From assembly GCA_903827955.1 (NCBI GenBank), contig CAIKKJ010000034.1, positions 2,946-66,945 on the forward strand: DNA of 64,000 nucleotides, read 5' to 3'. The notes beneath the pieces are model-generated. The model searched no databases. It was not told the DNA's origin and saw nothing but the letters and a program-made list of their open reading frames with translations. This document shows, piece after piece, positions 1 to 18,742 of this stretch. This DNA is from an uncultured Verrucomicrobia subdivision 3 bacterium. GTDB taxonomy: Bacteria > Verrucomicrobiota > Verrucomicrobiia > Limisphaerales > UBA11358. Position 1 is the stretch's first letter, and every line of letters begins with the position of its first letter. The position numbers were made by a program, and so were the translations under genes.

Positions 1-164
1 TCACCAGCGAGCGTGCGATTGCGAAGCACCTGCGTCATCGCCTTGTGACCCGCCACACGGCGAAAGCTGCCATCATCCAACAGCACGGGATTAGATTTCG
101 CCCAGGCGTTCCAAGCACGGCGCTGGTCGCGATTCAATTTTTTCCATTCGGTCGATAATTTCAT
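1..164 (-). CDS. hypothetical protein, N-terminal part only (continues beyond window start)
   Basis: ATG at 164-162 overlaps the stop of the upstream portal gene (ATGA at 161-164). Frame is open to position 1 (MKLSTEWKKLNRDQRRAWNAWAKSNPVLLDDG...). No family recognised. Confidence 0.4.
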   Translation of the reverse strand, partial: MKLSTEWKKLNRDQRRAWNAWAKSNPVLLDDGSFRRVAGHKAMTQVLRNRTLAG

Positions 165-1747
165 GGCGTCGTTTGTGGTTGTGCCGGAGGCGTTGCTACG
201 GGCGGGGTAGTGCCAGCATTAGGAAGACCCCCGGTCTGTTTCTCCTGACCGTTTTGAAAATTGCCCGTGCGGCTCGCACTGGGTTGTCCAGCTTTGACGA
301 GATTCTTTTCTTCATCATCCGTGCGTCCAGTGGGCAGGACTTCACCTTTACGGAAGAGATCAAACATGGTGGCCTGAGAGATGGCTCCAGCCTGCCAGGC
401 CGAGACGATGGCAGTGAGTTCCAGACTGGTCAGACCTTTGGCGGTGAAGTCAGTATTGATCTGGAGCAGGACGAGAGATTCACTGATGTCTTCGGGATAC
501 TGTTCAGTGGAGTTCCACCAATAGACCCAGCGAAGGACTTGGCTGATGGAGTCAGAGACAGACAAAGCCAGTGTCATCAAGATGCTATTCTCACCAGCTT
601 GACGGAGTTCAATGGCATCAGCAGTTTCACCGACACGTTTGGTGTCTTCCAGCATCCGGGAGCCGAGGACAGCCATGAGCCGTTCATCACGGTTTTGAGC
701 ATTCTCAAAGGTGGACAGACCATGACCTTTGAATTCAAGGAAGCCGGCGACAGCACCGACCGTGTCCGAGACCCAAGCCGTGCTGCTGCCGATGCGTAGC
801 TCCGAAGTTTTATCAAAGCCAGCGACCCAAGCGGTAGGCAGAGCAGTGAAGTGCAAGCCATGCTTGTAGTCAGCATCCAGACGGTAGTGATCCAGATTGA
901 CGGAGATGATGTCAGCCAGCGGCATCTTGTCCACGTCGGGCAGTGCGTTGCGTGGACCATGAAAGACAAAGGGAATCAGCGGCAGCGTTTTGCCCAGGCG
1001 GAGCGGCACACGGCTTTCCACCAGCGTCCATTTGGTCTTGGCTTGGCTGGCCTTTTGGCCGGGCCAGAAATTACCCATCCAAGAGGATTGGCTGTTCGCA
1101 CGGTGGCCGTCCGCAAGGACTTGCCAGACTTCGACAACGTAACGAGTGCTACCATCGGGCAGCACTTCCAACTTCAGCACGCGCACCGTTTCCGTAATTT
1201 TCACGGCGAACGGATCAGCATCGTCGGGACGTTCCACCATTTCACGGAGCGCCACCATCGTAACCACGTTGCGGCCATTGATGCGGGCAGCTTGCCAATT
1301 CAAAATATCCTCGGCGGCATAGCGGACAACATAAGCACGAGATTCACCATCGGCCTGCCAATCAATCAGCGTGCCACAGCGACCCACAGCAAGGACTTCA
1401 CCGACGACACCCTTGCAGAAAGTGAAGAGCGACGTGCCCATCAAATCCACGTCATCGGTGAAGACACGCAAGGCACCACCGACACCAGCATGGCGGTCAG
1501 GAAGTTTCACTTCGGGATCACGACGAAAGAGCAAACCGAGGAAGCCATCACAGGTGCGCGACGTGGCATTAAAGAAACAAGCACGGGATTTGTAGCCGAG
1601 ATAATCGTCATCCGTTTGGGAATCCAGACGAGGGAGATACATGATGCCACCAAGTTTCACGGCATCTTCACCAGCGATGACATCACGGGCGCGAAGCCAG
1701 GCAGGCAGGCTTGCGTCGTAATCAGGATGTGTCGAGTTCGCTGGCAC
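161..1747 (-). CDS. phage portal protein (DUF4055-like portal family), copy 1
   Basis: 528-aa ORF with GTG start. Roughly 55-60% identical by eye over its full length to ORF 14035-15558, which sits in portal-scaffold-capsid order. Shared blocks: STHPDYDAS..AW.RARDV.AGEDAVK, HYRL.ADYKHG.HFTALPTAWV.GFDK, SAWQAGAISQ.TM. Family name is from memory, not searched. Confidence 0.75.
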   Translation of the reverse strand: MPANSTHPDYDASLPAWLRARDVIAGEDAVKLGGIMYLPRLDSQTDDDYLGYKSRACFFNATSRTCDGFLGLLFRRDPEVKLPDRHAGVGGALRVFTDDVDLMGTSLFTFCKGVVGEVLAVGRCGTLIDWQADGESRAYVVRYAAEDILNWQAARINGRNVVTMVALREMVERPDDADPFAVKITETVRVLKLEVLPDGSTRYVVEVWQVLADGHRANSQSSWMGNFWPGQKASQAKTKWTLVESRVPLRLGKTLPLIPFVFHGPRNALPDVDKMPLADIISVNLDHYRLDADYKHGLHFTALPTAWVAGFDKTSELRIGSSTAWVSDTVGAVAGFLEFKGHGLSTFENAQNRDERLMAVLGSRMLEDTKRVGETADAIELRQAGENSILMTLALSVSDSISQVLRWVYWWNSTEQYPEDISESLVLLQINTDFTAKGLTSLELTAIVSAWQAGAISQATMFDLFRKGEVLPTGRTDDEEKNLVKAGQPSASRTGNFQNGQEKQTGGLPNAGTTPPVATPPAQPQTTP

Positions 1748-4257: not shown

Positions 4258-4273
4258 AACGTTGCTTTCGGTC

Positions 4274-4347: not shown

Positions 4348-4850
4348 AAAATTGAGTTCGCTGCGCTCGACAGAATTTAAGTTCGCGCTGCACTTCGCTC
4401 GCGTGCTCAACAGGAGAACACGAACGCGCTCGGATTCACGGTCTCCACGCTCGAACGTTGTGCGGAGTAATGTTAGATCGCTCCGCTCACAGAATTGTCC
4501 CGCACATCAGGCGCGTGCGCGGACGCCTGACGCTCATGCTGGCGGCGGCGGCTAACGCCACCGCTACGCCAGCACCGGGCCGCCTTCACAGGTTTACGAA
4601 TGGTTTCTCACGGCGGCCCTTTCGCTTCCGCGCGCACGCGTCGAACGTCGCAGGTCATCGAACGGTTTCCGCGCGATCCAACCATTCGGGTTGGCGGATG
4701 ATTTAAGCGCGCGGCCAGGCGGGGAAAAGTTAGTGGATTGCTGACTCGTCGCTGTCGCTCCTCGCGGGGGGCGAACGCGCACTGCGTTTGCGGTCGCCTT
4801 TTTGTTTTCAGAGGCCGCGAGGCTTCGCCACGGCCAAGACACAGCAATAT
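4348..4850. repeat. copy B of the three-copy structured non-coding element
   Basis: Starts AAAATTGAGTTCGC. Paired segments: 4460-4465/4500-4505, 4507-4513/4524-4530, 4538-4552/4557-4573, 4577-4584/4612-4619, 4628-4635/4707-4714. Shares an extra 3' block (CGCGAGGCTTCGCC...CAGCAATA) with copy C only. Confidence 0.8.
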
Positions 4851-6020: not shown

Positions 6021-6150
6021 GCTTGATTTTACAACGCCGCAACCTCTTTTGCAGCCTGTCCCCAGCACTGGGGACAAGACGAAAATTCCCGCTGTGTTAA
6101 TCTAAAGTCGTTGGGAGTAGTGACCCAACCGAAAAACAAGTGTTGAAGAA

Positions 6151-7658: not shown

Positions 7659-9326
7659 TCAGCCTTTCAGCAACTTCAGCAATCGCTTCTTGTCCTTCTG
7701 ATTCTTCTTGCCCGTCATACCCTCGATAATTTTCCGCATCTCCGCTTTCTGTTTATCCGCCTCGGCCTCGGTTGCAAGTGGCGCCGCCACCGACACGACC
7801 TTTTCTTCCTCCGCCCCATAGGTCAGCAGCGCCGGCATTGCCTTGTTCAGCGCCGTTCGGAACGCCTCGCGCCCCGGCTGGAAATAATGTTTCAGCACAA
7901 TGTCAGTCGTCTTGTGCCCTGTCACCTTCTGCACCAGTTCCAGCGCCACCCCGGCCGTCAGCGCCAGCGTCACCCACGTCACGCGGAAGCTGTGGAAATC
8001 CCGCACGCTCGCCGATCGCAAGCCATGTTTCCGTTCCACATACAAACCGGCTTTTTCCATGCCGTCTTTCACGCTGTCGCCTTTGTTCGCGTGGCTGGAG
8101 CCGCGCACAATCAGGCACCCGATGGCCTGTTCAATCTCGTTGAGATAACCCGAGACGCTGCCTTTGCTCACATTGACCGCCGCCATTACAGATTGGATGT
8201 TGTTACCATCCATGTAGTGCCGGAACACCATCGCCATCCGGGATCGTTTCTCGCCTTCCGGCAACGCCGCGATGTATTTCTCGCCTCGCTCCCGCGCCAG
8301 CGCGTCGGAAACTTCCGGCAACGCTTTCGTTTCTTCCCCCGCCTCCACTGGTTTTCTGAGCCCCACCGCCAGAATCTTTTTCACGCGCCAGGTGATGCCA
8401 TCCGGGTTTTCATCATACATCTCCGCTTGGTCAGGAAAAACATAACCGGTGAGTTTCGGCCCTGCCTCTTTTGCCAGCTTTTTCAGCTCCGCTGCCAGCA
8501 TGGGGAAAATGGGGATGCTAACGGTCTGACCGGTCTTCGAGGTTTTTACCGTGATGAAATGGTTTTTCAAATCCACATCCTTCCATTCCAGCAGACAACA
8601 ATCCCCGCGCCGCATGGCGGTGCACATTCCCGTGATGATGATCGGCCGAATGAAATCATCGTCCTTCGCCGCCTCATTGATTGCCCCCAGTTCTTCCGGC
8701 GAGAATGGCTGGCGAAACACAGTTTCCGTTTCCTTCGTCGGTGTGTCGGCAAAATGGTTGATGGCGCCCGCCGGCAGCAGATGCTTAAAAGTTGCCCGTA
8801 GCAGCTTGAGCGTGTCATTCCAGGTTTTGCCCGTGACGTGCCGCCCAGCCTCCTCGTCCAGAAAAGACCGGGCCATCGTTCCCGTAACGAAGGCGATTTC
8901 GACCACCTTGGGATTTTTCTTCTGCACGAATTCTACAAACCGGTTTAAGGTGGATTCGCACTGCTTCGCGTAGCGGGCATTCGGCGCTCGTCGCCGCGCA
9001 ATCTTCCCCCATTCCGCCGCTAGGTTTTCCAACTTCACCGACTTGATGGTTTCTCCAGTCTCATGCTCATACAATTTCTTTATCAAACGCACCGCCCCCT
9101 GTTTTGAGCGCGCCTCCTCGACGATTTGATTCAGCTTCGCTTGGGCGGCAACGCGCGAACATTCAAACGCCGTGTCGCCCGCTTCTTTCAGCGATTGGGA
9201 TTGCGGAGGCGTGCCGGCGATTTTAACGCCGAGATTGGCGCAGAATCGTTTGCCATTAATTTCATAACGGCCATACCAGAAGGGACGCAGTTGGCCGCTT
9301 AATTTCCATCGCAATTCGAGGGGCAT
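7659..9326 (-). CDS. tyrosine recombinase/integrase (phage integrase family) with a long insertion in the catalytic domain
   Basis: Catalytic signature is complete: R (TAMRRGDCCLLEW), K (VKTSKTGQTV), HSFRVTW, TGHKT, KHYF. A ~150-aa insert with an HTH-like segment lies between the K and HxxR boxes. Confidence 0.85.
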   Translation of the reverse strand: MPLELRWKLSGQLRPFWYGRYEINGKRFCANLGVKIAGTPPQSQSLKEAGDTAFECSRVAAQAKLNQIVEEARSKQGAVRLIKKLYEHETGETIKSVKLENLAAEWGKIARRRAPNARYAKQCESTLNRFVEFVQKKNPKVVEIAFVTGTMARSFLDEEAGRHVTGKTWNDTLKLLRATFKHLLPAGAINHFADTPTKETETVFRQPFSPEELGAINEAAKDDDFIRPIIITGMCTAMRRGDCCLLEWKDVDLKNHFITVKTSKTGQTVSIPIFPMLAAELKKLAKEAGPKLTGYVFPDQAEMYDENPDGITWRVKKILAVGLRKPVEAGEETKALPEVSDALARERGEKYIAALPEGEKRSRMAMVFRHYMDGNNIQSVMAAVNVSKGSVSGYLNEIEQAIGCLIVRGSSHANKGDSVKDGMEKAGLYVERKHGLRSASVRDFHSFRVTWVTLALTAGVALELVQKVTGHKTTDIVLKHYFQPGREAFRTALNKAMPALLTYGAEEEKVVSVAAPLATEAEADKQKAEMRKIIEGMTGKKNQKDKKRLLKLLKG

Positions 9327-9358: not shown

Positions 9359-9464
9359 AAAACATACAGCAAAACCCCGAACCGATTCAAGGAAAAAACC
9401 AACCAAACCACCAACCATAAGCCCTAAGCTGACACAAAAAGCCATATAAAGCCCATATTTTGCG

Positions 9465-9522
9465 TAAGCTCGTCAGGCTCATAACCTGAAGGTCGTTGGT
9501 TCAAATCCAGCCCCCGCAACCA
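9465..9522 (+). tRNA. tRNA-Met (CAT) 3' fragment: anticodon arm, variable loop, T arm, acceptor 3' strand and CCA; the 5' acceptor strand and D arm are missing
   Basis: Anticodon stem TCAGG/CCTGA (9473-77/9485-89), loop CTCATAA. T arm GTTGG-TTCAAAT-CCAGC (9495-9511). CCCCGCA-A-CCA ends at 9522. The required 5' strand TGCGGGG is absent upstream. Confidence 0.65.
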
Positions 9523-9528
9523 ATTTCC

Positions 9529-9563
9529 GGCCTTGAGACTCACGTTTCAAGGCCGTTTTTGTT
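9529..9563 (+). terminator. intrinsic terminator after the tRNA fragment
   Basis: GGCCTTGA (9529-36) pairs with TCAAGGCC (9547-54), followed by GTTTTTGTT. Confidence 0.7.
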
Positions 9564-9681: not shown

Positions 9682-10305
9682 TCACTTCATTTCTTTGTTC
9701 GCATCTGCCAAACCGCGTAATTGGCCGTGACGATGAGCAAAAAACCAAAGGCCAACCGCCGCAGCAACAGCGCCCAAAATCAAAAGCTCGTTACCGACGA
9801 TCAGCGACGGAAGCACCATAAGCGCAATGCCGCCGGCCAGAATTGCAACGCTCGTCGTCACGCTGCCGATGATGACTTGCAACGGAGGATAAAAGATGGA
9901 CGCCAGGCCGAACAGGAACATGGCGACGCCGACCCAAACAATTCCCTTGAGGCTCGCCAGCTTTGCGCTCAATTCGCGCGCCGTGTCTTTTTGAGCCGCG
10001 CCCAATTCCGTCTTGGCCCGCGTTTCTTCATGCTCGACGACCGGCATCGGCGCGCTGACAACCACCACTTGGTTGCTGGCGGACTCGAGCCGCGAACCGG
10101 CCGGCACGGTGTAGCTCCGCGTTTTCACCGTCTCTTGATCCTGCCGCGAGGCTTGCGCCGGGTTGTCGCCTTGCACGACGGTTTGACCGATGACACCGGA
10201 CGTGGAGGCGCGGCCACCCTTCAACGGAGCCAGATTGCAGCCGCAGAGCAAACCCGCCGCCGCGATGACAGCAATATCAATCAGCACAAATTTGGTTTTC
10301 GACAT
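9682..10305 (-). CDS. membrane protein, lipoprotein-like N-terminus, three C-terminal TM helices
   Basis: N-terminal AAGLLCGC lipobox-like signal and hydrophobic C-terminal third. Last gene of the head-module operon. Confidence 0.5.
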   Translation of the reverse strand: MSKTKFVLIDIAVIAAAGLLCGCNLAPLKGGRASTSGVIGQTVVQGDNPAQASRQDQETVKTRSYTVPAGSRLESASNQVVVVSAPMPVVEHEETRAKTELGAAQKDTARELSAKLASLKGIVWVGVAMFLFGLASIFYPPLQVIIGSVTTSVAILAGGIALMVLPSLIVGNELLILGAVAAAVGLWFFAHRHGQLRGLADANKEMK

Positions 10306-10307
10306 AA

Positions 10308-10628
10308 TTATTTTCCTTCCTGAAATCGGCGCAGTTCAAACGCGCAGTCATTAAGCGCCGCCGTGTTGTGGTCAATGCAGACGGCCAACTTCATCGCCGT
10401 CTCATTTTGCTTTTCGATGATTTGCGTCAGGGCCGCATGATGCTCGTCGCGCAACGCCTTGTGATCCGAAATCACGGTTTGAAGCTGTTGCACCAGCCAA
10501 TAAATCACCACGCCGCAAACGAGCAGCAGCAGGCAAAACGCCGCGAGAAACAACCAGCGGTCATTCATGCTGGCAGCGTGATCCACCGCTTGGAGAAAAT
10601 CGGCCGTGTTCATATTGGTCATATTCAA
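10308..10628 (-). CDS. small membrane protein (one TM helix + coiled coil)
   Basis: 106 aa. Has the WLFLAAFCLLLLVCGVVIYWLV helix. Start overlaps the stop of the upstream gene by 4 nt. Confidence 0.5.
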   Translation of the reverse strand: MNMTNMNTADFLQAVDHAASMNDRWLFLAAFCLLLLVCGVVIYWLVQQLQTVISDHKALRDEHHAALTQIIEKQNETAMKLAVCIDHNTAALNDCAFELRRFQEGK

Positions 10629-11179
10629 ACGCGTTGCAGTCGCACCATGCCGCTGGTCGCGCTCATCGGCACACCGTATTTCGCCAGCATCACCTGCGCG
10701 ACTTGCGACAAGACCGGACGGCGATCCGTTTTGTCGTAACCGGTTTGGTTGCCACCGGTGTTTTGATATTTCAATCCCTCACCGGCAGGCGCGGCGGTGC
10801 GGTCGGCAATCAAAAGTTCCCGCGCCATTTCACACGTCGCCTGGACAACGGCTTTCGGCACGCTGTCGAAGCGAACGTAATCCGATGGAATCGGCAGCAA
10901 CGCTTGCAGCGGGACATGAATCGCATCGGGTTCAGGACACCGGGCGCGAGGCCATTGCAAACCTTGCACGGCGTTCGCGCGCGTGCCGTTGAACTGAAAT
11001 TCCGCGTCAACCAACCGCGACGCCATCACGAGCGCCACGGCCTTTTGAGCGTCCGTCGCCGCCGTCCATGCCGAGGCGTAAAGATGGCCGTCGTGATAGG
11101 CGTTGCCATCGGTCAAGTCCGCGTAAGCGTTGGCATCCACCAATCCCGCGCCGGTTTCTTTGATCAGGGTGAGCGACAT
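10625..11179 (-). CDS. phage head-tail adaptor-type protein (DnaT-like / gp6-like family)
   Basis: Pattern ANAYADL..GNAY......AWTAATDAQKAVALVMASRLVD..F.F.G.......LQWPR is as I remember it for this phage family. Lies in the capsid operon. Confidence 0.5.
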   Translation of the reverse strand: MSLTLIKETGAGLVDANAYADLTDGNAYHDGHLYASAWTAATDAQKAVALVMASRLVDAEFQFNGTRANAVQGLQWPRARCPEPDAIHVPLQALLPIPSDYVRFDSVPKAVVQATCEMARELLIADRTAAPAGEGLKYQNTGGNQTGYDKTDRRPVLSQVAQVMLAKYGVPMSATSGMVRLQRV

Positions 11180-11188
11180 AAAGTTTAG

Positions 11189-11845
11189 CTAAATGACCGC
11201 AGACCAAGGCGACCAGACGCCGGCCACCTGATAACAGCAGGTGCAGCTTCCAAATTGCTGCGCGCTTTGCGCCTGTGTCGGCGATAAAACATCGTAGGCA
11301 GCGTTCGACTGATCCGCGCTGTCCGCCCAGCCCTGTATGGAACCGGAACCGTCATAGCCGCCATCGTTTTGAGCGAATCGCCAAACGCTCGTAGCCACCG
11401 GCGCGGTGCCCAAGAAATAACCGCCCACGCTCACCAAAGTGGGAGCATCCAGTGGCGCAGGAGCATCGCTCGGATGCACCGCGTTACTGTGTTGAGTGAT
11501 TTCCTTGCCGTCCGCGTCCACGCCGACGATGTAATGTAGTTCCTCGCCATCCGGCGCAAACTGCCGCGCATCGCCATACATCCAATAGCCGGTCGGCAGG
11601 AAATAAGTCGCGCCGCCGTCGAGACTCAGCCAGACATTCCATTTGTAAGGATTCGGCAAGTCCCAATCCCATTGCAGCAAGTCAGGCCAAGCCGCGCGCA
11701 AGACAGGCGGCGGCAACAAATGTCCTTTGCGCCGTTGCTCCGCCAGCCATGTCCGCCGTTGCAGCGGCGTCCAGGGCGCGTTACGGCGCGGCGGTTTTGG
11801 CAGGGCTTGCGACATCGTCAGGCTTGGAAATTTTGGCCGGTTCAA
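11189..11845 (-). CDS. hypothetical phage protein
   Basis: 218-aa ORF in the head operon. Start uncertain (alternative ATG at 11815). No family recognised. Confidence 0.45.
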   Translation of the reverse strand: MNRPKFPSLTMSQALPKPPRRNAPWTPLQRRTWLAEQRRKGHLLPPPVLRAAWPDLLQWDWDLPNPYKWNVWLSLDGGATYFLPTGYWMYGDARQFAPDGEELHYIVGVDADGKEITQHSNAVHPSDAPAPLDAPTLVSVGGYFLGTAPVATSVWRFAQNDGGYDGSGSIQGWADSADQSNAAYDVLSPTQAQSAQQFGSCTCCYQVAGVWSPWSAVI

Positions 11846-11960
11846 CCGCTGGCGTTTTCACCACAGGTTGAACCGGCGCGGTTTTGGTCGGAAGCGGCGG
11901 CGTGGCCTCGATAAAGGGACGCCGCTTTCGCCGAATGATGGGAAACAATTTGTCCATGAA

Positions 11961-12188
11961 TCAGATCGCGTTAGCGCCGATGGCAATTTGTTTCCAGTTT
12001 GTGCCGTCCGAAATGGCGAGGCACGGCACGGAGCCAGTGCCGCCAACGGACAGATAGATCATGCGGCGCGGAAATTTCGCCGCCGTGACGCCAGCAGCGA
12101 CCGCCGCCGCGACGTTGGTAAATGTCGGAATCTGGATTTGTTCACCCGAACGAATCCGCTCGAAACTGCGAGGTTGAAGTTTGCCCAT
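11961..12188 (-). CDS. small hypothetical phage protein
   Basis: ATG 12188 (MGKLQPRSFERIRSGEQIQIPTF...) avoids overlap with the capsid gene. 75 aa. Confidence 0.45.
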   Translation of the reverse strand: MGKLQPRSFERIRSGEQIQIPTFTNVAAAVAAGVTAAKFPRRMIYLSVGGTGSVPCLAISDGTNWKQIAIGANAI

Positions 12189-12238
12189 AATTTTAATTGG
12201 TAAAGCGGCGTGCCGGCGCGAACCGGCACGCCAATGGT

Positions 12239-13249
12239 TCAGATGTTGTGTGTCACGGCCACGACCGGGACGTTTTTGTTTTCCCACACGCGCACCCAGT
12301 TGGCGGCGGTGGCCAGTTCAGCGTTGGTCGGATTTGCACCGGCCACGCTCGCGCTGGTGAACTTCACACCGCGAGGGTGCAGGATGAAGCGGCGACGATT
12401 GACGAGGAACGTGTCGCTGTTGAGAGCGTCACGCGCCATTTCCATGCCTTCCGTGCCGTGACCGCCTTCGACAGGCGCACCGTTCAGATCGGCAAAGCCC
12501 ATACCGAACGCACCGTTGCCGAATAGATAGGTCGTATAGACCACGCCGTCAGTCGTGCCAGCGCGCGACGGGCAGCCGTCATCCACGATGACCCGACGGC
12601 CTTGGAACGTCTTGATTTGAGTTTCACCCTGGCTGTCCGGGATAAAATCAATCAGGTCGAGCTTGCGCAGCGCGGCTTCCACTGCGGAGTGCATCGCCAC
12701 GGCCACGAGCCGGTCGCCACGGTCGCCGAGGCGTTGCGTCGCATCCACGAAGGTTGCGCCGTTAAGCCGGGTGGCCGAGGTTTGCGCCGCGACGCTTTCG
12801 GATTGGATCGCCAACAGATTGCCCGCCATGCTCGCCGCACCGAAAACGCCGGTGAGGGAGTTGATGAGCATATACTGGTTCTGACGGTTCCAGTAATCGG
12901 CGATAAAGTCCGCCAGCGCCAGCGCCGGATCGTCACCGGCAACTTGCGTCGCCAGATGATTCCACGACCACGCATTGCCGTCGTTGTGGATGCGGGCGAT
13001 GTCCTGGTCAGCGACCAGTTTCGCCGGCACGAGCGGTGCCGAATCGGAAAGCGGCTGGCGGTTGCCCGTCAGATCATTCCAGTGGGGCATGTTGACTTGC
13101 GTGCCGCCGAGGGCCGCGCGCTCGTCATAGTCCGGCGTGCGGATGACAATGCCGGATTGAAACAGGTCGGATTTTTCCGCCGTGCGTTGAAGGACGTAGC
13201 CAGCGAATTGCGCTGGCACGATGATGTCTGCAAGTTGTGTCTTTGCCAT
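12239..13249 (-). CDS. major capsid protein (HK97-fold, N4-gp56/T7-like type)
   Basis: 336 aa, directly after the scaffold gene. The N-terminus MAKTQLADIIVPAQFAGYV resembles this capsid family (recollection). Confidence 0.7.
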   Translation of the reverse strand: MAKTQLADIIVPAQFAGYVLQRTAEKSDLFQSGIVIRTPDYDERAALGGTQVNMPHWNDLTGNRQPLSDSAPLVPAKLVADQDIARIHNDGNAWSWNHLATQVAGDDPALALADFIADYWNRQNQYMLINSLTGVFGAASMAGNLLAIQSESVAAQTSATRLNGATFVDATQRLGDRGDRLVAVAMHSAVEAALRKLDLIDFIPDSQGETQIKTFQGRRVIVDDGCPSRAGTTDGVVYTTYLFGNGAFGMGFADLNGAPVEGGHGTEGMEMARDALNSDTFLVNRRRFILHPRGVKFTSASVAGANPTNAELATAANWVRVWENKNVPVVAVTHNI

Positions 13250-13272
13250 AAACTAATTTTGGTGTTGTGACC

Positions 13273-14028
13273 TCACGCGGCGGCTTTCAAACGGGCAGCC
13301 AGCGCAGGATCGGTTTTCTGCAATTTCATTTGCTCCGTGAGATTCCACGTTTCCTTGCGGAACGGGTTTTTCGCGGACCGGTTGCCAGCCCCACCGGAGC
13401 CGGAGCCGGCAGCACCGCTGCCAGCGTTTGCTTCAAACAGGTGCGGCGCGTCGGACACCAACGCATCCACCCATTCGGCCAAAGTCAAAGCAGCCGCGCC
13501 GTCCTTGCCCGTGCGGGCAGTCTGGCCGTCGGCCTCAAAAGCCTGCGGCACGCCGTTGACGAGCTTGAACGTCTGGCGAGCACGCGAAGTGATGTCAGGA
13601 ATCGCCGTCGGCCGCAGACCACGTTTCGTGGCTTCGGTCACGACGGCTTGATCAATCTGAATTGCCGACAAGCGGCCAAGCAGCGTGTCACGCTCGCCGG
13701 TCACGGCGGAAAATTGTTTGTCCCAATCCGTCTTGGCCGTCTTGAGCCGCGCGTCCAAGACCTCTTGAAATTTGCCGTCCTTCAGCCGTTGTTCATCTTC
13801 CAAACGCTGCTTGTCGGCGGCGAGCTGACGCACGGCGTCAGGGTCAATGCCTTCAAACTTCTTGAGCTGGTTCGTCAGCGTGATGTTGTTCTGGCGGAAC
13901 TCATCCAGCTTGGTTTGACTCACGACGCCATCGGCATCCAGCACGAACGCACCGTCGCGCTCGACGTAAAAGGATTGATGTTCAGCAGGGATTTCCTGCT
14001 TCGTTGCATATTTGAATTTCAGGGGCAT
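13273..14028 (-). CDS. phage scaffolding protein
   Basis: 251 aa, lying between portal and capsid. Charged coiled-coil middle, Gly/Ser-rich segment and basic C-terminus. Confidence 0.65.
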   Translation of the reverse strand: MPLKFKYATKQEIPAEHQSFYVERDGAFVLDADGVVSQTKLDEFRQNNITLTNQLKKFEGIDPDAVRQLAADKQRLEDEQRLKDGKFQEVLDARLKTAKTDWDKQFSAVTGERDTLLGRLSAIQIDQAVVTEATKRGLRPTAIPDITSRARQTFKLVNGVPQAFEADGQTARTGKDGAAALTLAEWVDALVSDAPHLFEANAGSGAAGSGSGGAGNRSAKNPFRKETWNLTEQMKLQKTDPALAARLKAAA

Positions 14029-14034
14029 AAACTT

Positions 14035-15558
14035 TTAATTCACGGTTACAGGGTTGGCGTTCACATCACCGGGAACCGTCGGCGTGACGGGAACAGTTGG
14101 TTTGGTTTTCTTCTCGCTGGCGAGCAAGGCTTGCTCTTCTTCGTTCGTGCGACCGGGAGCGATGACCTCGCCAGCACGGAACAGGTTGAGCATCGTGTCC
14201 TGACTGATGGCGCCAGCTTGCCACGCGGAGACGATGGCGCTGATTTCCTGATACGTCATGCCAGCGAAATTGAAATCCGTGTTCAGGCTGGCAAGCACGA
14301 GGTCCGCACCGATGGCGTCAGGAATCGGCTCGGTCGAGTTCCACCAATAGACCCAGCGAAGCACCTGCGTCAGCGACGCGCTGACGCTCAAGGAAATGGT
14401 GTTCAAGATGGAGTTCTCGCCAGATTGACGGAGTTCGATGGCGGCAGCGGTTTCACCGACACGCTTGCGGGATTCGAGCATCCGCGTGCCGAGGACGGCC
14501 ATCAGTTGCTCGTCACGATCCATCGCACGCTCAAAGGTGGACAGACCTTGACCGTGAAATTCCAAGAAGCCAGCCGTGGCACCAGGAGTTTCCGCGACCC
14601 ATGCCGTGCTGCTACCAATGCGCAGCGTCGAAGCCTTGTCAAAGCCACTCACCCAAGCCGTCGGCAGGGCGGTGAAGTGCATACCATGCTTGTAGTCGGC
14701 ATTGAGACGGTAGTGATCGAGGTTGACGGCGATGATGTCTTCCAGCGGAATCTTGTCCACGTCAGGCAGCGAGTGACGCGGGCCGTGAAAGACAAAGGGA
14801 ATCAGCGGCAGAGATTTTCCAAGACGCAGCGGCGTGACGGTTTCAATCAGCTTCCATTCGAGACGTGTGCGAGCACGTTGACCGGAGGTGACGGGATTCT
14901 TGGGCAGCTTGCGCCAGACATCCACTTGATAAGTCCAATCAGTTTGCTCGTCGTTGCTAGACGATTGCGAAGGGACGAGTTTCAGGACGCGCAGTTGCGG
15001 GTAGGCAGTCGGACAGAAGGAGTCAGTGACCGAGGCAGTGTCTTGAAAAGTTTCTTGCAGGACTACCAGCGTCAGGACGTTGCGACCATTCACGCGCTGC
15101 GTCTGCCAGTTGATGATGTTTTCAGCAGCGTAGGCGACAGCATAGGCGCGTGGTTCAGTCTCGTTGTTCCAGTCAATCAGCGTGCCAGCACGACCGACGT
15201 TGATGATTTCCGTGACGAGCTTCTTCGAGAAGGCAGTCAGTGGCGTGCCAAGCATATCGGCATCGGCGACGAACTCAGCAAGCGAAGAACCGACACCGTT
15301 GGACTTGTCGGGCAGTTTGAAGGTTGGATCACGACGGAAGACCAGACCGACGAAGCCATCAGCCGTGCGAGCAGAAGCGTTGAAGAAAGAAGCACGGTTT
15401 TTGTAAGCGAGATATTCCTTGTCGTCCTGACAGTCCAGACGTGGCAGATACTTTTCAGCAGCAGCTTTGACGGCATCCTCACCGGCGAAGACATCACGGG
15501 CACGTTGCCATGCAGCGATGCTGGCGTCGTAATCAGGATGTGTCGAGTCCACTGGCAC
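14035..15558 (-). CDS. phage portal protein (DUF4055-like portal family), copy 2
   Basis: 507 aa with GTG start. Paralogue of 161-1747. First gene of a portal-scaffold-capsid operon. Confidence 0.8.
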   Translation of the reverse strand: MPVDSTHPDYDASIAAWQRARDVFAGEDAVKAAAEKYLPRLDCQDDKEYLAYKNRASFFNASARTADGFVGLVFRRDPTFKLPDKSNGVGSSLAEFVADADMLGTPLTAFSKKLVTEIINVGRAGTLIDWNNETEPRAYAVAYAAENIINWQTQRVNGRNVLTLVVLQETFQDTASVTDSFCPTAYPQLRVLKLVPSQSSSNDEQTDWTYQVDVWRKLPKNPVTSGQRARTRLEWKLIETVTPLRLGKSLPLIPFVFHGPRHSLPDVDKIPLEDIIAVNLDHYRLNADYKHGMHFTALPTAWVSGFDKASTLRIGSSTAWVAETPGATAGFLEFHGQGLSTFERAMDRDEQLMAVLGTRMLESRKRVGETAAAIELRQSGENSILNTISLSVSASLTQVLRWVYWWNSTEPIPDAIGADLVLASLNTDFNFAGMTYQEISAIVSAWQAGAISQDTMLNLFRAGEVIAPGRTNEEEQALLASEKKTKPTVPVTPTVPGDVNANPVTVN

Positions 15559-15695: not shown

Positions 15696-16727
15696 TCACG
15701 GATGCACGAGACGAAAGAATTTATTTCCAGTCGAGACAGGAATCGTGACGGTGACGGTGGAAGCATTGCTGCTGATGTTGCCGGTGTAGGCAGTCCAGTT
15801 GGTAGAGCCAAGATTCGTGGTTTGTTGCAGCGAGAAGCCTGATGCTCCCGAAGGCCAGGACAGTGAGAGGTTGGTTCCATTCGAGACGATTCCAGATAAA
15901 GGCGGTGAGACGACCGGCATCGGTTGACCATCCACTTTGGCACGGAGGACAGCAGCGGTGTATGGCGACAGAGACGAAAAGAATGTATATCCGGTGATGG
16001 TTTGAAGTTGGTTGACCGAGACGAGATAGTTTGTCCAAGGTGCAGACCGGATTCCGGCGATGTTCGGGATGTTGACGGCGATGACACGGGTTGCAGTCGT
16101 GATACGATTGGTTGCCATGTCAGTTCCGTTGGTGACGATGACGATGATTTTCCAGACGTTCGACGGAATATAGACCAGACCAGCAGCATTGATTTGATTC
16201 GTCCCGAATCCACTTGGCCCACAGGTTATCAAGACTTCATTTCCCTGTGAGGCAATCGTCCGACAGTAGGTTTCAAGATTTGCCCACACACCCTGATTGT
16301 TGTCCGGTGTCTGCGGAATGATGTTCGACATGAAGAATACCAGGTCGTTGACTTCGACGCTGACAGTTCGATCTCCAGATGGACACATGTGTCCACGGTC
16401 ATATCCCGATCCACTGTAATCCGTGGGTTTGACCTCATAAAAACTTGATGGCAAGTTCGTGTCCAATAAGAAATTTCCACGTCCACTTGAGCCTACGTCG
16501 TCAGTCGTTAAGTCCCAGCTTGCCCAATTTGGTTCCCGAAGATTGTCGTTGTAGTCTAGGGCTTCGGCGGCGCGTTGAATCAGATAGTGACTGTGGTTAT
16601 TCGTGTCAGACGTGGCGTTGCTGGGATTGCCAAGTTGCATTTGAAATTCGGTCCCGATTTTGGCGTGAGCAGAAAAGACGTTGATGGCAAAGAGAAGCAC
16701 GCTGGCGGTGAGCCAGCTTTTCGTCAT
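15696..16727 (-). CDS. secreted DNA/RNA non-specific endonuclease (Serratia NucA / DRGH family) with C-terminal beta-sandwich-like domain
   Basis: SGYDRGHMCPSGDR carries the DRGH active-site motif and NIIPQ..DNN follows. Signal peptide MTKSWLTASVLLFAINVFSAHA from ATG 16727. GC is visibly lower than in the neighbours. Confidence 0.8.
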   Translation of the reverse strand: MTKSWLTASVLLFAINVFSAHAKIGTEFQMQLGNPSNATSDTNNHSHYLIQRAAEALDYNDNLREPNWASWDLTTDDVGSSGRGNFLLDTNLPSSFYEVKPTDYSGSGYDRGHMCPSGDRTVSVEVNDLVFFMSNIIPQTPDNNQGVWANLETYCRTIASQGNEVLITCGPSGFGTNQINAAGLVYIPSNVWKIIVIVTNGTDMATNRITTATRVIAVNIPNIAGIRSAPWTNYLVSVNQLQTITGYTFFSSLSPYTAAVLRAKVDGQPMPVVSPPLSGIVSNGTNLSLSWPSGASGFSLQQTTNLGSTNWTAYTGNISSNASTVTVTIPVSTGNKFFRLVHP

Positions 16728-16985
16728 TTTGTTTGTGGCGTTTCGGTTCAAGCTGCGAACGATTAGGATAGCACAATTCGCGATGTTGTCTTTAAGCATT
16801 TCGACGATTCAATTTTCGGCAGCAATCGAGAAGTTTGGTTTAAGATTTTTTCATCTTTTGACCCCGGTAATTTTTTTGCGTGTGATAATTCGTGAGACTT
16901 TTATTTTTCGACACGGGCGACCAGATGAAGTTGTGTGTCGTGGGCAATGTGAATGTTTGTGGTAATTCGGATGCGCTCGAAAGAC

Positions 16986-17388
16986 AAAGTTAGTTCGCGT
17001 TGCTCAACAGATAATTCAGTTCGCGCTTTGCTCTGCGACGCACTCATCCAACACGAACGCGCGCAACCATTCACGGTTTCCATTTGCGAACGTCATCAGG
17101 CGCGTGCGCGGATGCCTGACGCTCATGCTGGCGGCGGCGGCTAACGCCACCGCGACGCCAGCACCGGCACGCCTTCACTGGTTTACGAAAGTCACACTCG
17201 GCGTGCCTTTCGCTACAGCGCGCACGCGGCGGACATCGCAGGTTGGCGAATGTTTGCAGCGCGATTTAACCATTCAGGTTGGCGGATGATTTAGCGCGCT
17301 GTCAGGCAATGAAACCTCGTCGCTATCGCCGAAGACGAAAGCATTAGCATCGCGAGGCTTCGCCCGATGCAAGGCATCAGCAATAGTC
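16986..17388. repeat. copy C of the three-copy structured non-coding element
   Basis: Starts AAAGTTAGTTCGC. Paired segments: 17096-17102/17113-17119, 17127-17141/17146-17162, 17166-17173/17200-17207, 17216-17223/17294-17301. Lacks the 46-nt hairpin present in copies A and B. Confidence 0.8.
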
Positions 17389-17812
17389 GCGGCGACGGTC
17401 CAGCTTTCGGTCGCTTCGCTGCTCGCCGGTGCGGCTCGCACCTACGCTCCCGAAACTGGCCGCCCCCGCTGGAAAAACCAAATCAGTCCGAGACCCCGGC
17501 GCAGGGTTTCGTTGGCCTGCTGGCTCAGGTTTGACCCTGTCCCCCGCAAACTGGCCATCATTCCACTAGACCCAACGCCGGGGACTCAGAGAAATTGGCA
17601 CCGCGCTATCGCGACTGTGCCGGGAAACGAAGTGACCCGGCAAAAAAATTGAAGCGGCTCCGCTCACGGGGTTGGCATGACGGAACATCTCCGGCTACGG
17701 TGCTCGTGCCTGCGCGCCTGTGCCTCCGATTTGCTTCCGAGACATTCACACAACACATATTGTGTGTTTGGTCGGTGAAACCACGCCGACACCTCCCACA
17801 TAAATTCTGATC

Positions 17813-18742
17813 GTGCCGACACACCACGAACCTGCCGACATTGACGTCGCCAAAGAAACCTGGGCCGAATTCTTGCGGCAATGTCACCCCGAAGAATTTC
17901 GCAAAGGCGGCAACCGCGTTTGCGTGCCGATGATTGTCGGCGACGAAATCCTTGGCGTCATCATTCTTGGCGACCGCGTGGGTGGCGCGCCGTTCAGCTG
18001 GCAGGATTTTGATTTGCTCAAATGTATCGGCGACCAGGTGGCCGCTGGTCTGCTCAACACACGCCTTTCCCAAAAGCTCGTCCAGGCCAAGGAACTCGAA
18101 GCTTTCCAGACCATGTCCGCGTTTTTTGTGCATGACATGAAAAACACCGCCAATACGCTAAACCTGATGCTGCAAAATTTACCCGTGCATTTCGACAATC
18201 CCGAATTTCGCGCCGACGCCTTGCGCGGAGTCGCCAAAACCGTCGGCCGCATCAACCATCTCATCGGCCGCCTCGGCTCCATCCGCAGCGAACTCCAGAT
18301 CAAACCTGTCGAAGCCGACCTGAACGCCGTCATCGCCAAAGCCCTCGAAGGCTGGGAAGAAATTGCGGGCCTTAATCTCAAAAAGGAATTCACCGCACTG
18401 CCGAAATTCCTTTTTGACCCCGAACAGATGTTGAAAGTCGCTACCAACCTCATCTTCAATGCCCGCGAAGCTGTCGCTCAAGACGGACAGGTGCAAATCC
18501 ATACCGCACAGAAAAACGGCTACATCATTTTGACTGTCACTGACACCGGCTGCGGCATGAGCCCCGAGTTTCTGAATCGCCAGTTGTTCCGCGCCTTTCA
18601 GACCACCAAGAAAAACGGACTAGGCATCGGCATGTTTCAGAGCAAGATGATTGTCGAAGCGCACAAAGGCCGTCTGGAAGTTGAAAGCGAATCCGGCAAA
18701 GGCACCACCTTCCGCGTCGTGCTGCCGTTGAAAACCAAATAA
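17813..18742 (+). CDS. histidine kinase, PrsK-like (PEP-CTERM-system type), 5'-truncated: end of GAF + HisKA + HATPase_c only
   Basis: FFVHDMKNTANTL H-box, NPEF, N-box NLIFNAREA, DTGCGM, GLGIG. An in-frame stop lies at 17808-17810 immediately upstream. No TM or sensor region is present, and the sequence starts in mid-GAF. Confidence 0.7.
   Translation: MPTHHEPADIDVAKETWAEFLRQCHPEEFRKGGNRVCVPMIVGDEILGVIILGDRVGGAPFSWQDFDLLKCIGDQVAAGLLNTRLSQKLVQAKELEAFQTMSAFFVHDMKNTANTLNLMLQNLPVHFDNPEFRADALRGVAKTVGRINHLIGRLGSIRSELQIKPVEADLNAVIAKALEGWEEIAGLNLKKEFTALPKFLFDPEQMLKVATNLIFNAREAVAQDGQVQIHTAQKNGYIILTVTDTGCGMSPEFLNRQLFRAFQTTKKNGLGIGMFQSKMIVEAHKGRLEVESESGKGTTFRVVLPLKTK

What the first reader, a model, noticed from the sequence alone, without database searches (positions are those of the whole stretch)
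9682..15558. Head-only phage module (portal, scaffold, capsid, adaptor) with no terminase, protease, tail or replication genes
A single minus-strand operon encodes portal, scaffold, major capsid, three small or unknown proteins, a DnaT/gp6-like adaptor and two membrane proteins, then stops at the tRNA fragment. Upstream of the portal there is a nuclease rather than a terminase. The whole B-C interval is only ~12 kb. This is either a heavily decayed prophage or a capsid-encoding satellite comparable in logic to capsid-forming PICIs, which make their own small capsids and borrow tails and packaging functions from a helper. The genes are intact, tightly spaced, long ORFs with overlapping stop/start codons, which argues against simple decay.
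Basis: inference. Interest (0 to 1): 0.6.

Follow-up and report, generated by a model that had tools for sequence, protein, structure and literature searches.

The report
Truncated tail-less capsid island copy
The head-only gene cluster is real and intact, but it is the surviving half of a broken copy of a mobile island family in Verrucomicrobia whose complete members build and fill their own virus heads and never carry tail genes.

Summary
Window 9682-15558 (minus strand) encodes portal, scaffold, major capsid protein, a 75-aa protein, a modular 218-aa protein, an Ad1 head-tail adaptor and two membrane proteins. All are intact and end at a tRNA-Met 3' fragment.

It is not a self-contained head-only satellite. 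Its other end is a deletion joint (17775-17813) that fuses a decayed island gene to the last 309 codons of a host histidine kinase of about 710 aa. Integrase, replication genes and TerS/TerL are missing.

The genome holds at least four diverged copies. About 65 related loci in Verrucomicrobia MAGs and IMG/VR contigs share one order: TerS-TerL, a ~4-kb reverse-strand block, a structured non-coding repeat, a cargo slot, then portal through the lipoprotein gene, then att/tRNA. Tail genes never follow. A compact ~19-kb member adds integrase, a weak xis-like match, primase and helicase, which is the layout of capsid-forming PICIs. A real siphovirus relative (capsid 58% identical) has the full neck and tail, and none of those genes has a homologue in the islands.

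So this is a remnant of a cf-PICI-like family that I could not find described. The scan met the family before on other DNA (e1-3238497). Satellite behaviour is inferred, not shown.

The parts
9462..9522 (+). 3' 61 nt of a tRNA-Met gene (anticodon arm to CCA). It is the att junction between the neighbouring int555 element on the left and the head-module element R on the right.
   Evidence: 56 nt are identical to the full tRNA-Met on C152 (contig end) and C5. The Rfam tRNA match scores 27 bits, below the gathering threshold. ARAGORN finds no tRNA in the window.
9528..9555 (+). 12-bp-stem terminator-like hairpin just after the tRNA fragment; the conserved arm of the element on its lipoprotein-gene side.
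   Evidence: The same sequence follows the intact tRNA-Met on C5.
9682..10305 (-). p207: lipoprotein (invariant G-C lipobox, Cys23) with a conserved periplasmic segment and three C-terminal TM helices. It is the last gene of the element. Spanin-like or exclusion-like by inference only.
   Evidence: Alignment of 16 homologues, 76% mean column identity. dN/dS 0.11-0.20. 2679 NR90 clusters in metagenomes, all named hypothetical, no Pfam domain. No Pfam, PHROG or NCBIfam match.
10308..10628 (-). p106: single-pass membrane protein (TM about residues 24-46) with a helical C-terminal part. Always paired with the lipoprotein gene.
   Evidence: The sequence itself. 19 homologues down to 34% identity. 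dN/dS 0.05-0.09. Only sub-threshold NCBIfam matches, confined to the TM segment.
10625..11179 (-). Head-tail adaptor Ad1
   Evidence: PHROG_477 E=1e-28; Pfam DnaT_2 E=2e-21. Homologous to the Ad1 of the true siphovirus L084.
11189..11845 (-). p218: modular beta-rich protein in a hypervariable slot (114-655 aa in relatives), with shuffled domains of about 90 aa. Probably a head decoration or fibre protein.
   Evidence: Slot survey and domain shuffling. AF2 model pLDDT 57, mostly beta. Weak BFVD matches to FN3-type phage proteins, TM-score 0.2-0.3. No terminase or tail fold.
11961..12188 (-). p75: very conserved 75-aa protein with an invariant S-D-G-x-x-W motif, placed directly after the capsid gene.
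   Evidence: 25-sequence alignment, 77% mean column identity, including the 73-aa gene that follows the capsid gene in phage L084 at 41% identity. AF2 pLDDT 80. No significant fold match.
12239..13249 (-). Major capsid protein (SPP1 gp13-like, scaffold-dependent type)
   Evidence: PHROG_247 E=2e-92. About 48% identical to capsid proteins of cultured siphoviruses. dN/dS 0.06-0.13.
13273..14028 (-). Head scaffolding protein
   Evidence: PHROG_206 E=3e-39
14035..15558 (-). Portal protein
   Evidence: PHROG_145 E=1e-116; DUF4055
15696..16799 (-). Secreted non-specific DNA/RNA endonuclease; a cargo gene in the variable slot between the non-coding repeat and the portal.
   Evidence: Endonuclease_NS E=4e-47 plus an N-terminal signal peptide. 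A 68%-identical homologue sits in the same slot in L073. Other copies carry a 245-aa, a 429-aa, an SRAP or a HEPN/Fic gene there instead.
16984..17329 (.). Copy C of a conserved, hairpin-rich non-coding repeat. Copies A (1919-2265) and B (4349-4705) lie in the neighbouring element. In complete elements it sits between the reverse-strand block and the cargo slot.
   Evidence: A 9-sequence RNAalifold run gives 52 pairs, 7 with compensatory changes. No Rfam family. Earlier scan notes e1-2839261 and e1-2839262.
17323..17774 (-). Decayed remnant of the island's 209-aa gene (N-terminal part missing, frameshifted).
   Evidence: tblastn and blastn against C200:23075-23704 and C55:5588-5854.
17775..17813 (.). 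Deletion joint. Island homology ends at 17774 and host kinase homology begins at about 17814.
17813..18742 (+). 3' fragment (309 codons) of a host GAF histidine-kinase gene.
   Evidence: Same-genus orthologues, 80-85% identical, have open frames of 704-722 aa. The N-terminal 394 aa have no match anywhere in the assembly.
7659..9326 (-). Tyrosine integrase (555 aa) of the neighbouring element, not of the head module in question.
   Evidence: PHROG_1 E=1e-35. It lies on the other side of the tRNA-Met fragment. No homologue appears in the ~65 related loci.
161..1747 (-). Portal of a second, diverged head module (61% identical) that belongs to the neighbouring element and runs off the contig.
   Evidence: DUF4055 E=2e-36. 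Its capsid and scaffold genes lie on C34:666-2471.

Best explanation
Window 9523 to about 17790 is the att-proximal, structural half of one copy (R) of a family of tRNA-integrating islands of Verrucomicrobia (subdivision 3 / Limisphaerales-type MAGs).

Complete members encode integrase, an excisionase-like protein, primase and helicase. After these come TerS and TerL, a reverse-strand block of small genes, a structured non-coding element and a variable cargo slot. The element then ends with the operon seen here: portal, scaffold, major capsid protein, p75, a variable beta-rich protein, Ad1 adaptor, a membrane protein and a lipoprotein. The att site follows directly, so the family has no neck-closure or tail genes by design.

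Inferred mechanism for a complete member, by analogy with cf-PICIs:
- It excises, replicates, builds its own scaffold-type heads and fills them with its own terminase.
- It needs tails, and probably an inducing signal, from a helper phage.
- The terminal membrane pair may help release or exclusion.

Copy R has lost everything upstream of the non-coding element through a deletion that also removed the 5' 1.2 kb of a host histidine-kinase gene. It has no integrase, no second att site, no replication genes and no terminase. It can at most express head proteins and cannot move or package on its own. Its eight structural genes are still intact, most simply because the deletion is young. They could be used in trans by, or recombine with, the intact sister copy on contig C200.
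For: Shown:
1. Gene identities.
2. Deletion joint. Island homology ends at 17774 inside a decayed gene, and kinase homology starts at about 17814. Orthologous kinases are 704-722 aa against 309 here, and the missing N-terminus is nowhere in the assembly. The same arrangement occurs in at least three independent assemblies.
3. At least four diverged copies in this genome. Only the C200 copy keeps an intact TerS/TerL, and it is the only TerL match in the genome. C55 keeps a TerL C-terminal remnant.
4. The C200 element is bounded by an exact 23-bp direct repeat of the tRNA-Gly 3' end, with its head module abutting one repeat.
5. Conserved order in about 65 related loci. TerS/TerL is present in most loci that have enough upstream sequence. 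A tRNA gene (Met, Gly, Leu, Cys or Ala) lies within ~0.2-2.7 kb downstream of the last mapped membrane-protein gene; the compact member has tRNA-Pro at its integrase end.
6. A compact ~19-kb member runs tRNA-Pro, integrase, xis-like gene, primase, AAA_25 helicase, TerS, TerL, then the head genes.
7. Positive control. The siphovirus contig L084 (capsid 58% identical) has MuF, Hc1, Neck1, tail terminator, tail tube, chaperone and tape measure. Its TerL, portal, scaffold, capsid, p73 and Ad1 find homologues in 24-65 of the fetched loci. Its MuF, neck and tail proteins find none (MuF hits only the non-island viral contig L086), apart from one Hc1 hit in L049, and none in this genome.
8. No tape-measure, sheath, HK97-capsid or S78-protease Pfam match in the genome, and HNH only on unrelated contigs.
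9. dN/dS is 0.05-0.3 for all eight genes.
10. Patchy distribution: 15 of 61 same-genus genomes, with 1-4 copies each.

Inferred: helper dependence, tail borrowing, and the role of the membrane pair.
Against:
- Many island genes have no recognisable family, so a very unusual attachment or delivery device cannot be excluded.
- The family lacks three cf-PICI core genes (HNH, prohead protease, head-closure connector). It ends with possible lysis-type membrane proteins, which cf-PICI definitions exclude.
- Element boundaries were proven by repeats only for the C200 copy and for the int555 neighbour. The compact ~19-kb member is bounded by the tRNA/integrase on one side and by ORFs with no island homology, assumed to be host genes, on the other, without a detected repeat.
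- The intactness of all eight genes in a copy that cannot move is also what selection for a trans-acting or host-serving role would produce.
Confidence: 0.7

Rival explanations
1. R is a functional minimal 'head-only' satellite. It supplies only capsid parts and borrows integrase, replication, terminase and tails from other elements or phages.
For: All eight genes are intact and tightly spaced. The upstream non-coding element and cargo slot are retained. An intact sister element with TerS/TerL is in the same genome. The neighbouring element also has a complete head module without a terminase.
Against: The right end is an illegitimate deletion joint that also truncates a host gene. There is no second att site in the assembly. 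Most related loci with enough upstream sequence have TerS/TerL, and the exceptions are visibly broken in different ways. The same-genus genomes that hold this kinase orthologue (G010, G014, G017, G019, G020) carry it full-length, so none of them shares the deletion. There is therefore no sign that this form is inherited or spread.
Confidence: 0.08
2. The whole family consists of ordinary defective prophages that lost their tails by decay. R is just a more eroded example, and nothing in the family is satellite-like.
For: Truncated and rearranged copies are common: L037, L045, L051, L061, C55 and both copies in the window. The capsid genes clearly derive from siphoviruses.
Against: In every locus where the downstream end is visible, the same break point recurs: Ad1, then the membrane pair, with the att/tRNA close behind. 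This holds across two clades whose capsid proteins are only 63-64% identical and across six tRNA targets, which random decay would not produce. All genes are under purifying selection. Copies in different genomes and at different sites are 92-96% identical in capsid protein, while a housekeeping SHMT is 85-89% identical, so the tail-less form appears to be the form that spreads. The compact member has a PICI-type int-xis-pri-helicase left arm.
Confidence: 0.1
3. The head module is kept by the host for a cellular purpose, for example a GTA-like transfer agent, a capsid decoy that interferes with infecting phages, or a reservoir for recombination with active copies.
For: Intact genes persist in at least two copies that cannot mobilise themselves. 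Defence-type cargo rides on these islands: HEPN/Fic, AbiEii, SNF2-PLD with an Eco57I-type methylase, and a secreted nuclease. One public assembly has a mosaic with an R-type right half and a C200-type left half.
Against: Distribution is patchy (15 of 61 genus members). Integrases and att sites are present, and copy number is variable, all unlike domesticated GTAs. There are no tail genes for a GTA. The mosaic could be an assembly chimera and no DNA was available for it. There is no direct evidence of expression.
Confidence: 0.07
4. The arrangement is an artefact of metagenome assembly or binning, with repeats joined wrongly.
For: The genome is a 213-contig MAG. Contigs break at the repeated modules (C5, C55, C27, the start of C34). 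One variant assembly differs upstream.
Against: The order from GH28 and the truncated kinase through the nuclease and head module to int555 is reproduced in at least three independent assemblies, including a 175-kb scaffold. The copies are only 60-83% identical in DNA over most of their length.
Confidence: 0.03

Closest known systems
Capsid-forming PICIs (cf-PICIs, e.g. EcCIEDL933, KpCIDSM30104; de Sousa et al. 2023, PMC10085698; He et al. 2025, bioRxiv 10.1101/2025.02.11.637232)
   Same: At family level these are integrative islands with an integrase, an AlpA/xis-type gene and a primase-helicase. They have their own TerS and TerL, portal, major capsid protein and head-tail adaptor, and no tail module. 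The compact member is about 19 kb. Several copies can occur per genome, and they carry defence-type cargo.
   Different: - The head is scaffold-dependent and SPP1 gp13-like, not an HK97-type head with a prohead protease.
- There is no HNH, and no head-closure 'connector' in the window's clade.
- About 4-6 kb (reverse-strand genes, a large structured non-coding element and a cargo slot) is wedged between TerL and the portal.
- The operon ends with a conserved membrane protein plus lipoprotein pair that may be lysis-related.
- The host phylum is Verrucomicrobiota, whereas cf-PICIs are reported from Proteobacteria and Firmicutes.
- Some members reach 32-39 kb.
- The copy in this window lacks integrase, replication genes and terminase altogether.
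- No helper phage is known.
Classical PICIs/SaPIs and P4
   Same: The left-arm logic (int, regulators, xis, pri-rep) and tRNA or att integration. They depend on a helper for virion parts.
   Different: These use the helper's capsid proteins and only remodel them (CpmAB, Sid, TerS). The present family has a complete head gene set and a large terminase.
Siphovirus head modules of the SPP1 gp13 / DUF4055-portal type, e.g. IMG/VR contig 3300027917_000108 (locus L084) and Enterococcus phage phiFL3A
   Same: Homologous TerL, portal, scaffold, capsid (58% and 48% identity), the small post-capsid protein and Ad1, in the same order.
   Different: The phages continue with Hc1, Neck1, tail terminator, tube, chaperone, tape measure and distal tail genes. 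They also carry a MuF-like minor head protein, and TerL directly abuts the portal. None of this is found in the islands.
Defective prophage remnants at tRNA genes
   Same: Copy R itself fits: one att side only, a truncated flanking host gene, a decayed internal gene, and loss of the integrase and packaging genes.
   Different: The parent was not a tailed prophage but an element that was already tail-less.
Earlier scan finding e1-3238497 (tail-less capsid-making island at a tRNA-Pro gene in another Verrucomicrobia genome)
   Same: The same family by shared capsid-gene words and the same reading.
   Different: That copy was reported as complete (about 32 kb, with packaging genes). This one is truncated.

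Membership tests
cf-PICI (capsid-forming phage-inducible chromosomal island) | Integrase and flanking att repeats (site-specific integration) | tested here: not met
   Copy R has only the tRNA-Met fragment on one side, no integrase of its own and a deletion joint on the other side. At family level the feature is met: the C200 copy has an integrase next to tRNA-Gly and an exact 23-bp direct repeat.
cf-PICI (capsid-forming phage-inducible chromosomal island) | Regulator (AlpA/MerR/Stl type) and primase-replicase module | tested here: not met
   Absent from R. In the compact relative G001:C7 there is a primase (PHROG_2597 E=5e-15), an AAA_25 helicase (E=1e-17) and a weak excisionase-like match (E=0.002). 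The AlpA/xis-like ORFs next to the integrase in the 64% clade were judged by eye only.
cf-PICI (capsid-forming phage-inducible chromosomal island) | Own small and large terminase | tested here: not met
   There is none in window 9.5-17.8 kb. The only TerL in the genome is on C200, plus a remnant on C55. Most related loci with enough upstream sequence have both subunits.
cf-PICI (capsid-forming phage-inducible chromosomal island) | Portal and major capsid protein | tested here: met
   PHROG_145 and PHROG_247
cf-PICI (capsid-forming phage-inducible chromosomal island) | Prohead serine protease and HNH nuclease | tested here: not met
   A scaffold protein (PHROG_206) stands in their place. There is no Peptidase_S78 match in the genome, and HNH matches occur only on unrelated contigs C104 and C52.
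cf-PICI (capsid-forming phage-inducible chromosomal island) | Head-tail adaptor plus head-tail connector (head closure) | tested here: inconclusive
   The Ad1 adaptor is present (PHROG_477). No Hc1-type connector was found in R or its clade. One divergent relative (L049) has an Hc1-like gene.
cf-PICI (capsid-forming phage-inducible chromosomal island) | No tail module and no lysis genes | tested here: inconclusive
   Tails are absent. The terminal membrane protein and lipoprotein pair has a spanin-like topology, which could count as lysis genes. No family match decides this.
cf-PICI (capsid-forming phage-inducible chromosomal island) | Induction by a helper phage and transfer in particles that carry helper tails | not testable with these tools
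   The organism is uncultured.
Defective prophage / island remnant | Loss of mobility and packaging genes by deletion, with a broken gene at the boundary | tested here: met
   A decayed 209-aa-gene remnant is fused to a kinase fragment of 309 aa out of about 710.
Gene transfer agent | Vertically inherited, non-mobile cluster with head and tail genes, and no integrase or att sites | tested here: not met
   Present in 15 of 61 same-genus genomes at variable copy number. Integrases and att sites are present. No tail genes.

The most novel reading that the evidence does not exclude
In this family the neck and tail genes of the ancestral siphovirus were replaced, at exactly the same position, by a conserved membrane protein plus lipoprotein pair. 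That pair is often more conserved than the portal and represents about 2,700 distinct sequence clusters in metagenomes. The islands might therefore make DNA-filled tail-less heads that leave or enter cells by a membrane-associated route, without borrowing tails. Terminase-less copies such as R might then be serviced in trans by an intact sister island, making them satellites of a satellite.
Probability: 0.1. Interest if true: 0.85.

Novelty: new variant of a known kind. Interest (0 to 1): 0.45.

Why it matters
Capsid-forming satellites are known from Proteobacteria and Firmicutes, where they arose from phages more than once. This family would be a further independent origin in a different phylum, Verrucomicrobiota. 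It uses a different head-assembly system (scaffold rather than protease). It also carries extra conserved parts of unknown role: a large structured non-coding element in front of the head operon, and a terminal membrane pair.

The family is abundant in soil, peat and freshwater metagenomes and occurs in several copies per genome. It carries defence and nuclease cargo, so it is probably a major route of gene flow and phage interference in these uncultured bacteria.

The copy examined here is useful mainly as a natural deletion series. It shows where the elements break and that head modules outlive the rest.

Tried and rejected
- Hidden terminase, tail or decoration folds in the four unknown ORFs. 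Pfam, PHROG and NCBIfam scans gave nothing above noise, and PDB sequence searches of p75 and p218 gave nothing.
- p75: the AF2 model is decent (pLDDT 80) but had no fold match at E<=0.001 in PDB or BFVD. There was only weak resemblance to N-terminal parts of fibre or spike proteins.
- p218: the AF2 model is poor (pLDDT 57). The FN3-like matches have TM-scores of 0.2-0.3 and are only suggestive.
- Promoter and terminator scan: no excess over shuffles.
- Rfam: no family for the repeat.
- A resident helper prophage: no tape-measure, sheath, HK97-capsid or second TerL match in the 95%-complete MAG.
- att repeats for the relatives in G001, G004 and G005: none of 12 nt or more, only an 11-nt match that could be chance.
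- Terminal repeats on whole IMG/VR contigs, as a sign of excised circles: none.
- The left end of the neighbouring element: public contigs that carry its portal are too short. The join of C5 or C27 to the start of C34 therefore stays unproven.
- Rejected: the nuclease as a packaging enzyme, because it has a signal peptide and sits in a variable slot.
- Rejected: int555 as the integrase of this module, because it lies across the att junction and is absent from all related loci.
- Rejected: the lack of a protease as an anomaly, because this is a scaffold-type head.

Full report
OBSERVATION

- Portal, 14035-15558: PHROG_145 E=1e-116; DUF4055.
- Scaffold, 13273-14028: PHROG_206 E=3e-39.
- Major capsid protein, 12239-13249: PHROG_247 E=2e-92; Pfam Gp13-like.
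- A small ORF, best read as 75 aa from 12188.
- A 218-aa ORF, 11189-11845.
- Ad1 head-tail adaptor, 10625-11179: PHROG_477 E=1e-28; the 'DnaT_2' Pfam model.
- A 106-aa single-pass membrane protein, 10308-10628.
- A 207-aa lipoprotein with three C-terminal TM helices, 9682-10305.

Gaps between genes run from -4 to 115 nt. Upstream of the portal lies an Endonuclease_NS gene with a signal peptide (15696-16799). Downstream lies the 3' 61 nt of a tRNA-Met gene (9462-9522). Of these, 56 nt are identical to the complete tRNA-Met found at the end of contig C152 and on C5. At least three independent public assemblies, one a 175-kb scaffold, show the same order, so this is not an assembly artefact.

WHAT SURROUNDS IT

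The window is C34:2946-66945 of a 3.86-Mb, 213-contig genome. Left of the tRNA fragment lie, in order going left:
- a 555-aa tyrosine integrase (7659-9326);
- a J-domain-like protein;
- a second integrase whose frame runs out of recombinase homology into a repeat (4608-6077);
- a HEPN/Fic pair;
- a second portal, 61% identical (161-1747), whose scaffold and capsid genes continue to the contig start.

Three copies of a hairpin-rich non-coding repeat (A 1919-2265, B 4349-4705, C 16984-17329) lie upstream of the two portals and at the broken integrase.

The tRNA gene is on the plus strand, so islands inserted in it lie to its right. The head module examined here (R) is therefore one element that starts at 9523. 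The genes to the left, int555 included, belong to a later-inserted neighbour, and the fragment at 9462-9522 is that neighbour's right att site.

THE RIGHT END OF R IS A DELETION

DNA and protein homology of R to its sister copies continues past the nuclease and through repeat C. It then runs into a remnant of a 209-aa island gene that lacks its N-terminus and is frameshifted, and it stops at 17774. From about 17814 the sequence is the last 309 codons of a GAF histidine kinase. Same-genus orthologues of that kinase, 80-85% identical, have open frames of 704-722 aa. The missing 394 N-terminal residues match nothing in the assembly. No second tRNA-Met fragment exists. R has therefore lost one whole side.

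WHAT WAS LOST

The genome contains at least four diverged copies of the head module. The closest copy (C200; capsid protein 95% identical, portal 76%, 83% DNA identity over 5.9 kb) has TerS and TerL about 4 kb upstream of its portal. This is the only TerL in the genome. Between TerL and the portal lie a reverse-strand block (DUF6573 and small ORFs), the 209-aa gene, the non-coding repeat and a 245-aa cargo gene.

That element is bounded by an exact 23-bp direct repeat of the 3' end of tRNA-Gly (15356-15378 and 54741-54763). The integrase sits next to the tRNA, and the lipoprotein gene sits next to the other repeat. Its 39 kb also hold two ParB-like genes, a serine recombinase, an exonuclease and defence-type cargo (SNF2-PLD helicase, Eco57I-type methylase, AbiEii). 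It has no tail genes. Copy C55 retains only a C-terminal TerL remnant.

THE FAMILY

I recovered 51 loci from species-representative genomes, nearly all of them MAGs labelled Verrucomicrobia subdivision 3, Limisphaerales, Verrucomicrobiales or a broader Verrucomicrobia rank (a few carry other or no phylum label, likely mis-binned), plus 14 IMG/VR contigs. Mapping all genes by tblastn shows one conserved order:
- TerS, TerL;
- the reverse-strand block;
- the 209-aa gene;
- the non-coding repeat;
- a cargo slot;
- portal, scaffold, capsid, p75;
- a variable gene;
- Ad1, the membrane protein, the lipoprotein.

Where the downstream flank is visible, a tRNA gene (Met, Gly, Leu, Cys or Ala) follows within ~0.2-2.7 kb of the last mapped membrane-protein gene. 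TerS/TerL is present in most loci with enough upstream sequence. The exceptions (L037, L045, L051, L061) are broken in different places.

Several genomes hold 4-5 copies. Within the genus, 15 of 61 genomes have the capsid gene, in 1-4 copies.

A compact member in a long-read MAG (G001:C7) spans about 19 kb. It runs tRNA-Pro, integrase, a 326-aa gene, small divergent ORFs, a weak excisionase-like match, a primase and an AAA_25 helicase. It continues with TerS, TerL, the block and repeat, an SRAP cargo gene, the head operon, and then ORFs with no island homology that I take to be host genes. That is the PICI/cf-PICI layout, and it leaves no room for a tail module.

In the second clade (capsid 63-64% identical) the operon also ends with the membrane protein and an analogous lipoprotein with a TM helix. 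In the loci inspected, an AlpA/xis-like ORF (judged by eye) comes next. An integrase and then the tRNA follow in L053; L059 has an integrase-like hit and a tRNA-Ala downstream, and L046 a tRNA-Leu.

POSITIVE CONTROL FOR 'NO TAIL'

An IMG/VR contig (L084; capsid 58% identical) is a true siphovirus. Its order is TerS, TerL, portal, MuF-like protein, scaffold, capsid, a 73-aa homologue of p75, Ad1, Hc1, Neck1, tail terminator, tube, chaperone, tape measure and distal tail proteins.

I used its proteins as tblastn queries against the fetched loci and this genome. TerL, portal, scaffold, capsid, p73 and Ad1 hit 24-65 loci. The MuF, neck and tail proteins hit none of the island loci (MuF matched only the non-island viral contig L086), apart from one Hc1 hit in the divergent L049. 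Pfam models for tape measure, sheath, HK97 capsid and S78 protease find nothing in this genome, and HNH occurs only on unrelated contigs. Cultured siphoviruses with about 48%-identical capsids show the usual head-neck-tail order.

THE UNKNOWN ORFS

All eight genes of R have dN/dS of 0.05-0.3 against four to five relatives, and none has a disabling mutation.

- p75 is exactly 75 aa in about 50 loci, with an invariant SDGxxW motif. Its AF2 model (pLDDT 80) has no significant fold match. It shows only weak similarity to N-terminal parts of fibre or spike proteins.
- p218 occupies a hypervariable slot (114-655 aa in relatives). It is built from a short conserved leader and shuffled beta domains of about 90 aa. 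Its model is poor (pLDDT 57) and resembles tandem FN3/Ig domains only loosely. A decoration or fibre role is plausible but unproven.
- p207 has an invariant lipobox and a strongly conserved body. It has 2,679 homologue clusters in public data, all unnamed.
- With p106 (N-terminal TM, helical remainder), p207 resembles a spanin pair or an exclusion device in topology. No family match supports either.

None of the four looks like a terminase or a tail protein.

INTERPRETATION

The family is tail-less by design rather than by decay. Three observations support this:
- The same end point recurs across two deep clades and six tRNA targets.
- Selection is purifying.
- Capsid proteins are 92-96% identical between copies in different genomes and sites, whereas a housekeeping SHMT is 85-89% identical.

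Its gene set matches the logic of capsid-forming PICIs as defined in PMC10085698 and in bioRxiv 10.1101/2025.02.11.637232. It differs from them in several ways:
- a scaffold instead of a protease;
- no HNH;
- no head-closure connector in this clade;
- a 4-6-kb insertion with a structured non-coding element between TerL and the portal;
- a terminal membrane pair;
- a different host phylum.

I found no description of such elements in Verrucomicrobia. The marine VEIMEs reported from that phylum encode no capsid genes. The scan itself met the family once before on other DNA (e1-3238497).

Helper dependence and tail borrowing are inference. Copy R is a non-autonomous remnant of this family. Its intact genes are most simply explained by a recent deletion, although trans-use by the intact C200 copy cannot be excluded. 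One public assembly shows an R-type right half behind a C200-type left half with TerL. This is either a real recombinant or an assembly chimera, and no DNA was available to decide.

LIMITS

- The left boundary of the neighbouring element is unresolved, because contigs break at the repeats.
- att repeats were proven for only two elements.
- Many island ORFs remain unannotated.

Noticed in passing
window 1919-2265, 4349-4705, 16984-17329; L007:2467-2904; L009:4640-5240: A conserved, GC-rich, hairpin-dense non-coding element of about 350-450 nt sits upstream of every head operon of the family. In my 9-sequence RNAalifold run, 7 of 52 pairs showed compensatory changes. It has no Rfam family. Different cargo genes (nuclease, HEPN/Fic, SRAP, 245-aa, 429-aa) are inserted on its portal-facing side.
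   Followed up: partly
L007 (C200:23075-25600) and equivalent positions in about 30 loci: A ~4-kb block lies between TerL and the portal, mostly on the opposite strand (DUF6573 protein, three or four small ORFs, a 209-aa protein). In the true phage relative, TerL abuts the portal. In the 64%-identity clade, homologues of some block genes (DUF6573 and one or two small ORFs) lie far upstream of TerS instead.
   Followed up: partly
L013/L007 (C200:36163-44842): The complete sister island carries a defence-like cassette: a 1105-aa PLD-SNF2 helicase, a 1418-aa Eco57I/MmeI-type methylase with DUF6577, and an AbiEii toxin. It also has two ParB/RepB-like genes and a serine recombinase next to the tyrosine integrase.
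   Followed up: no
window 4608-6077: An integrase-like ORF keeps the N-terminal and Arg/Lys parts of a tyrosine recombinase. From about residue 365 it reads through repeat copy B, so the catalytic His/Tyr region is gone. It looks like a recombination scar.
   Followed up: partly
window 2421-4302: A convergent HEPN_RiboL-PSP (208 aa) and Fic (391-406 aa) pair fills the gap between repeat copies A and B. The same pair appears in two other public assemblies.
   Followed up: partly
window 20575-22794: A single 739-aa frame fuses a low-molecular-weight phosphatase, RpiB and serine hydroxymethyltransferase. The open frames in four of five other Verrucomicrobia genomes are similar in length (717-729 aa), so the fusion seems conserved.
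   Followed up: no
L049:13235-14882: A divergent family member keeps an Hc1-like head-closure gene and a 387-aa gene between Ad1 and the membrane protein. It may be an intermediate between phage and island.
   Followed up: no
G000 contigs C20, C115, C32, C6, C69: Several further fragments of the tRNA-Gly 3' end (23-44 nt) are scattered in the genome. This suggests many more islands or island scars at tRNA-Gly genes.
   Followed up: no
C34:2471-3109 (left of the window) and L096:4470-5072: The neighbouring head module has an extra 200-aa gene between portal and scaffold that is absent from copy R.
   Followed up: no
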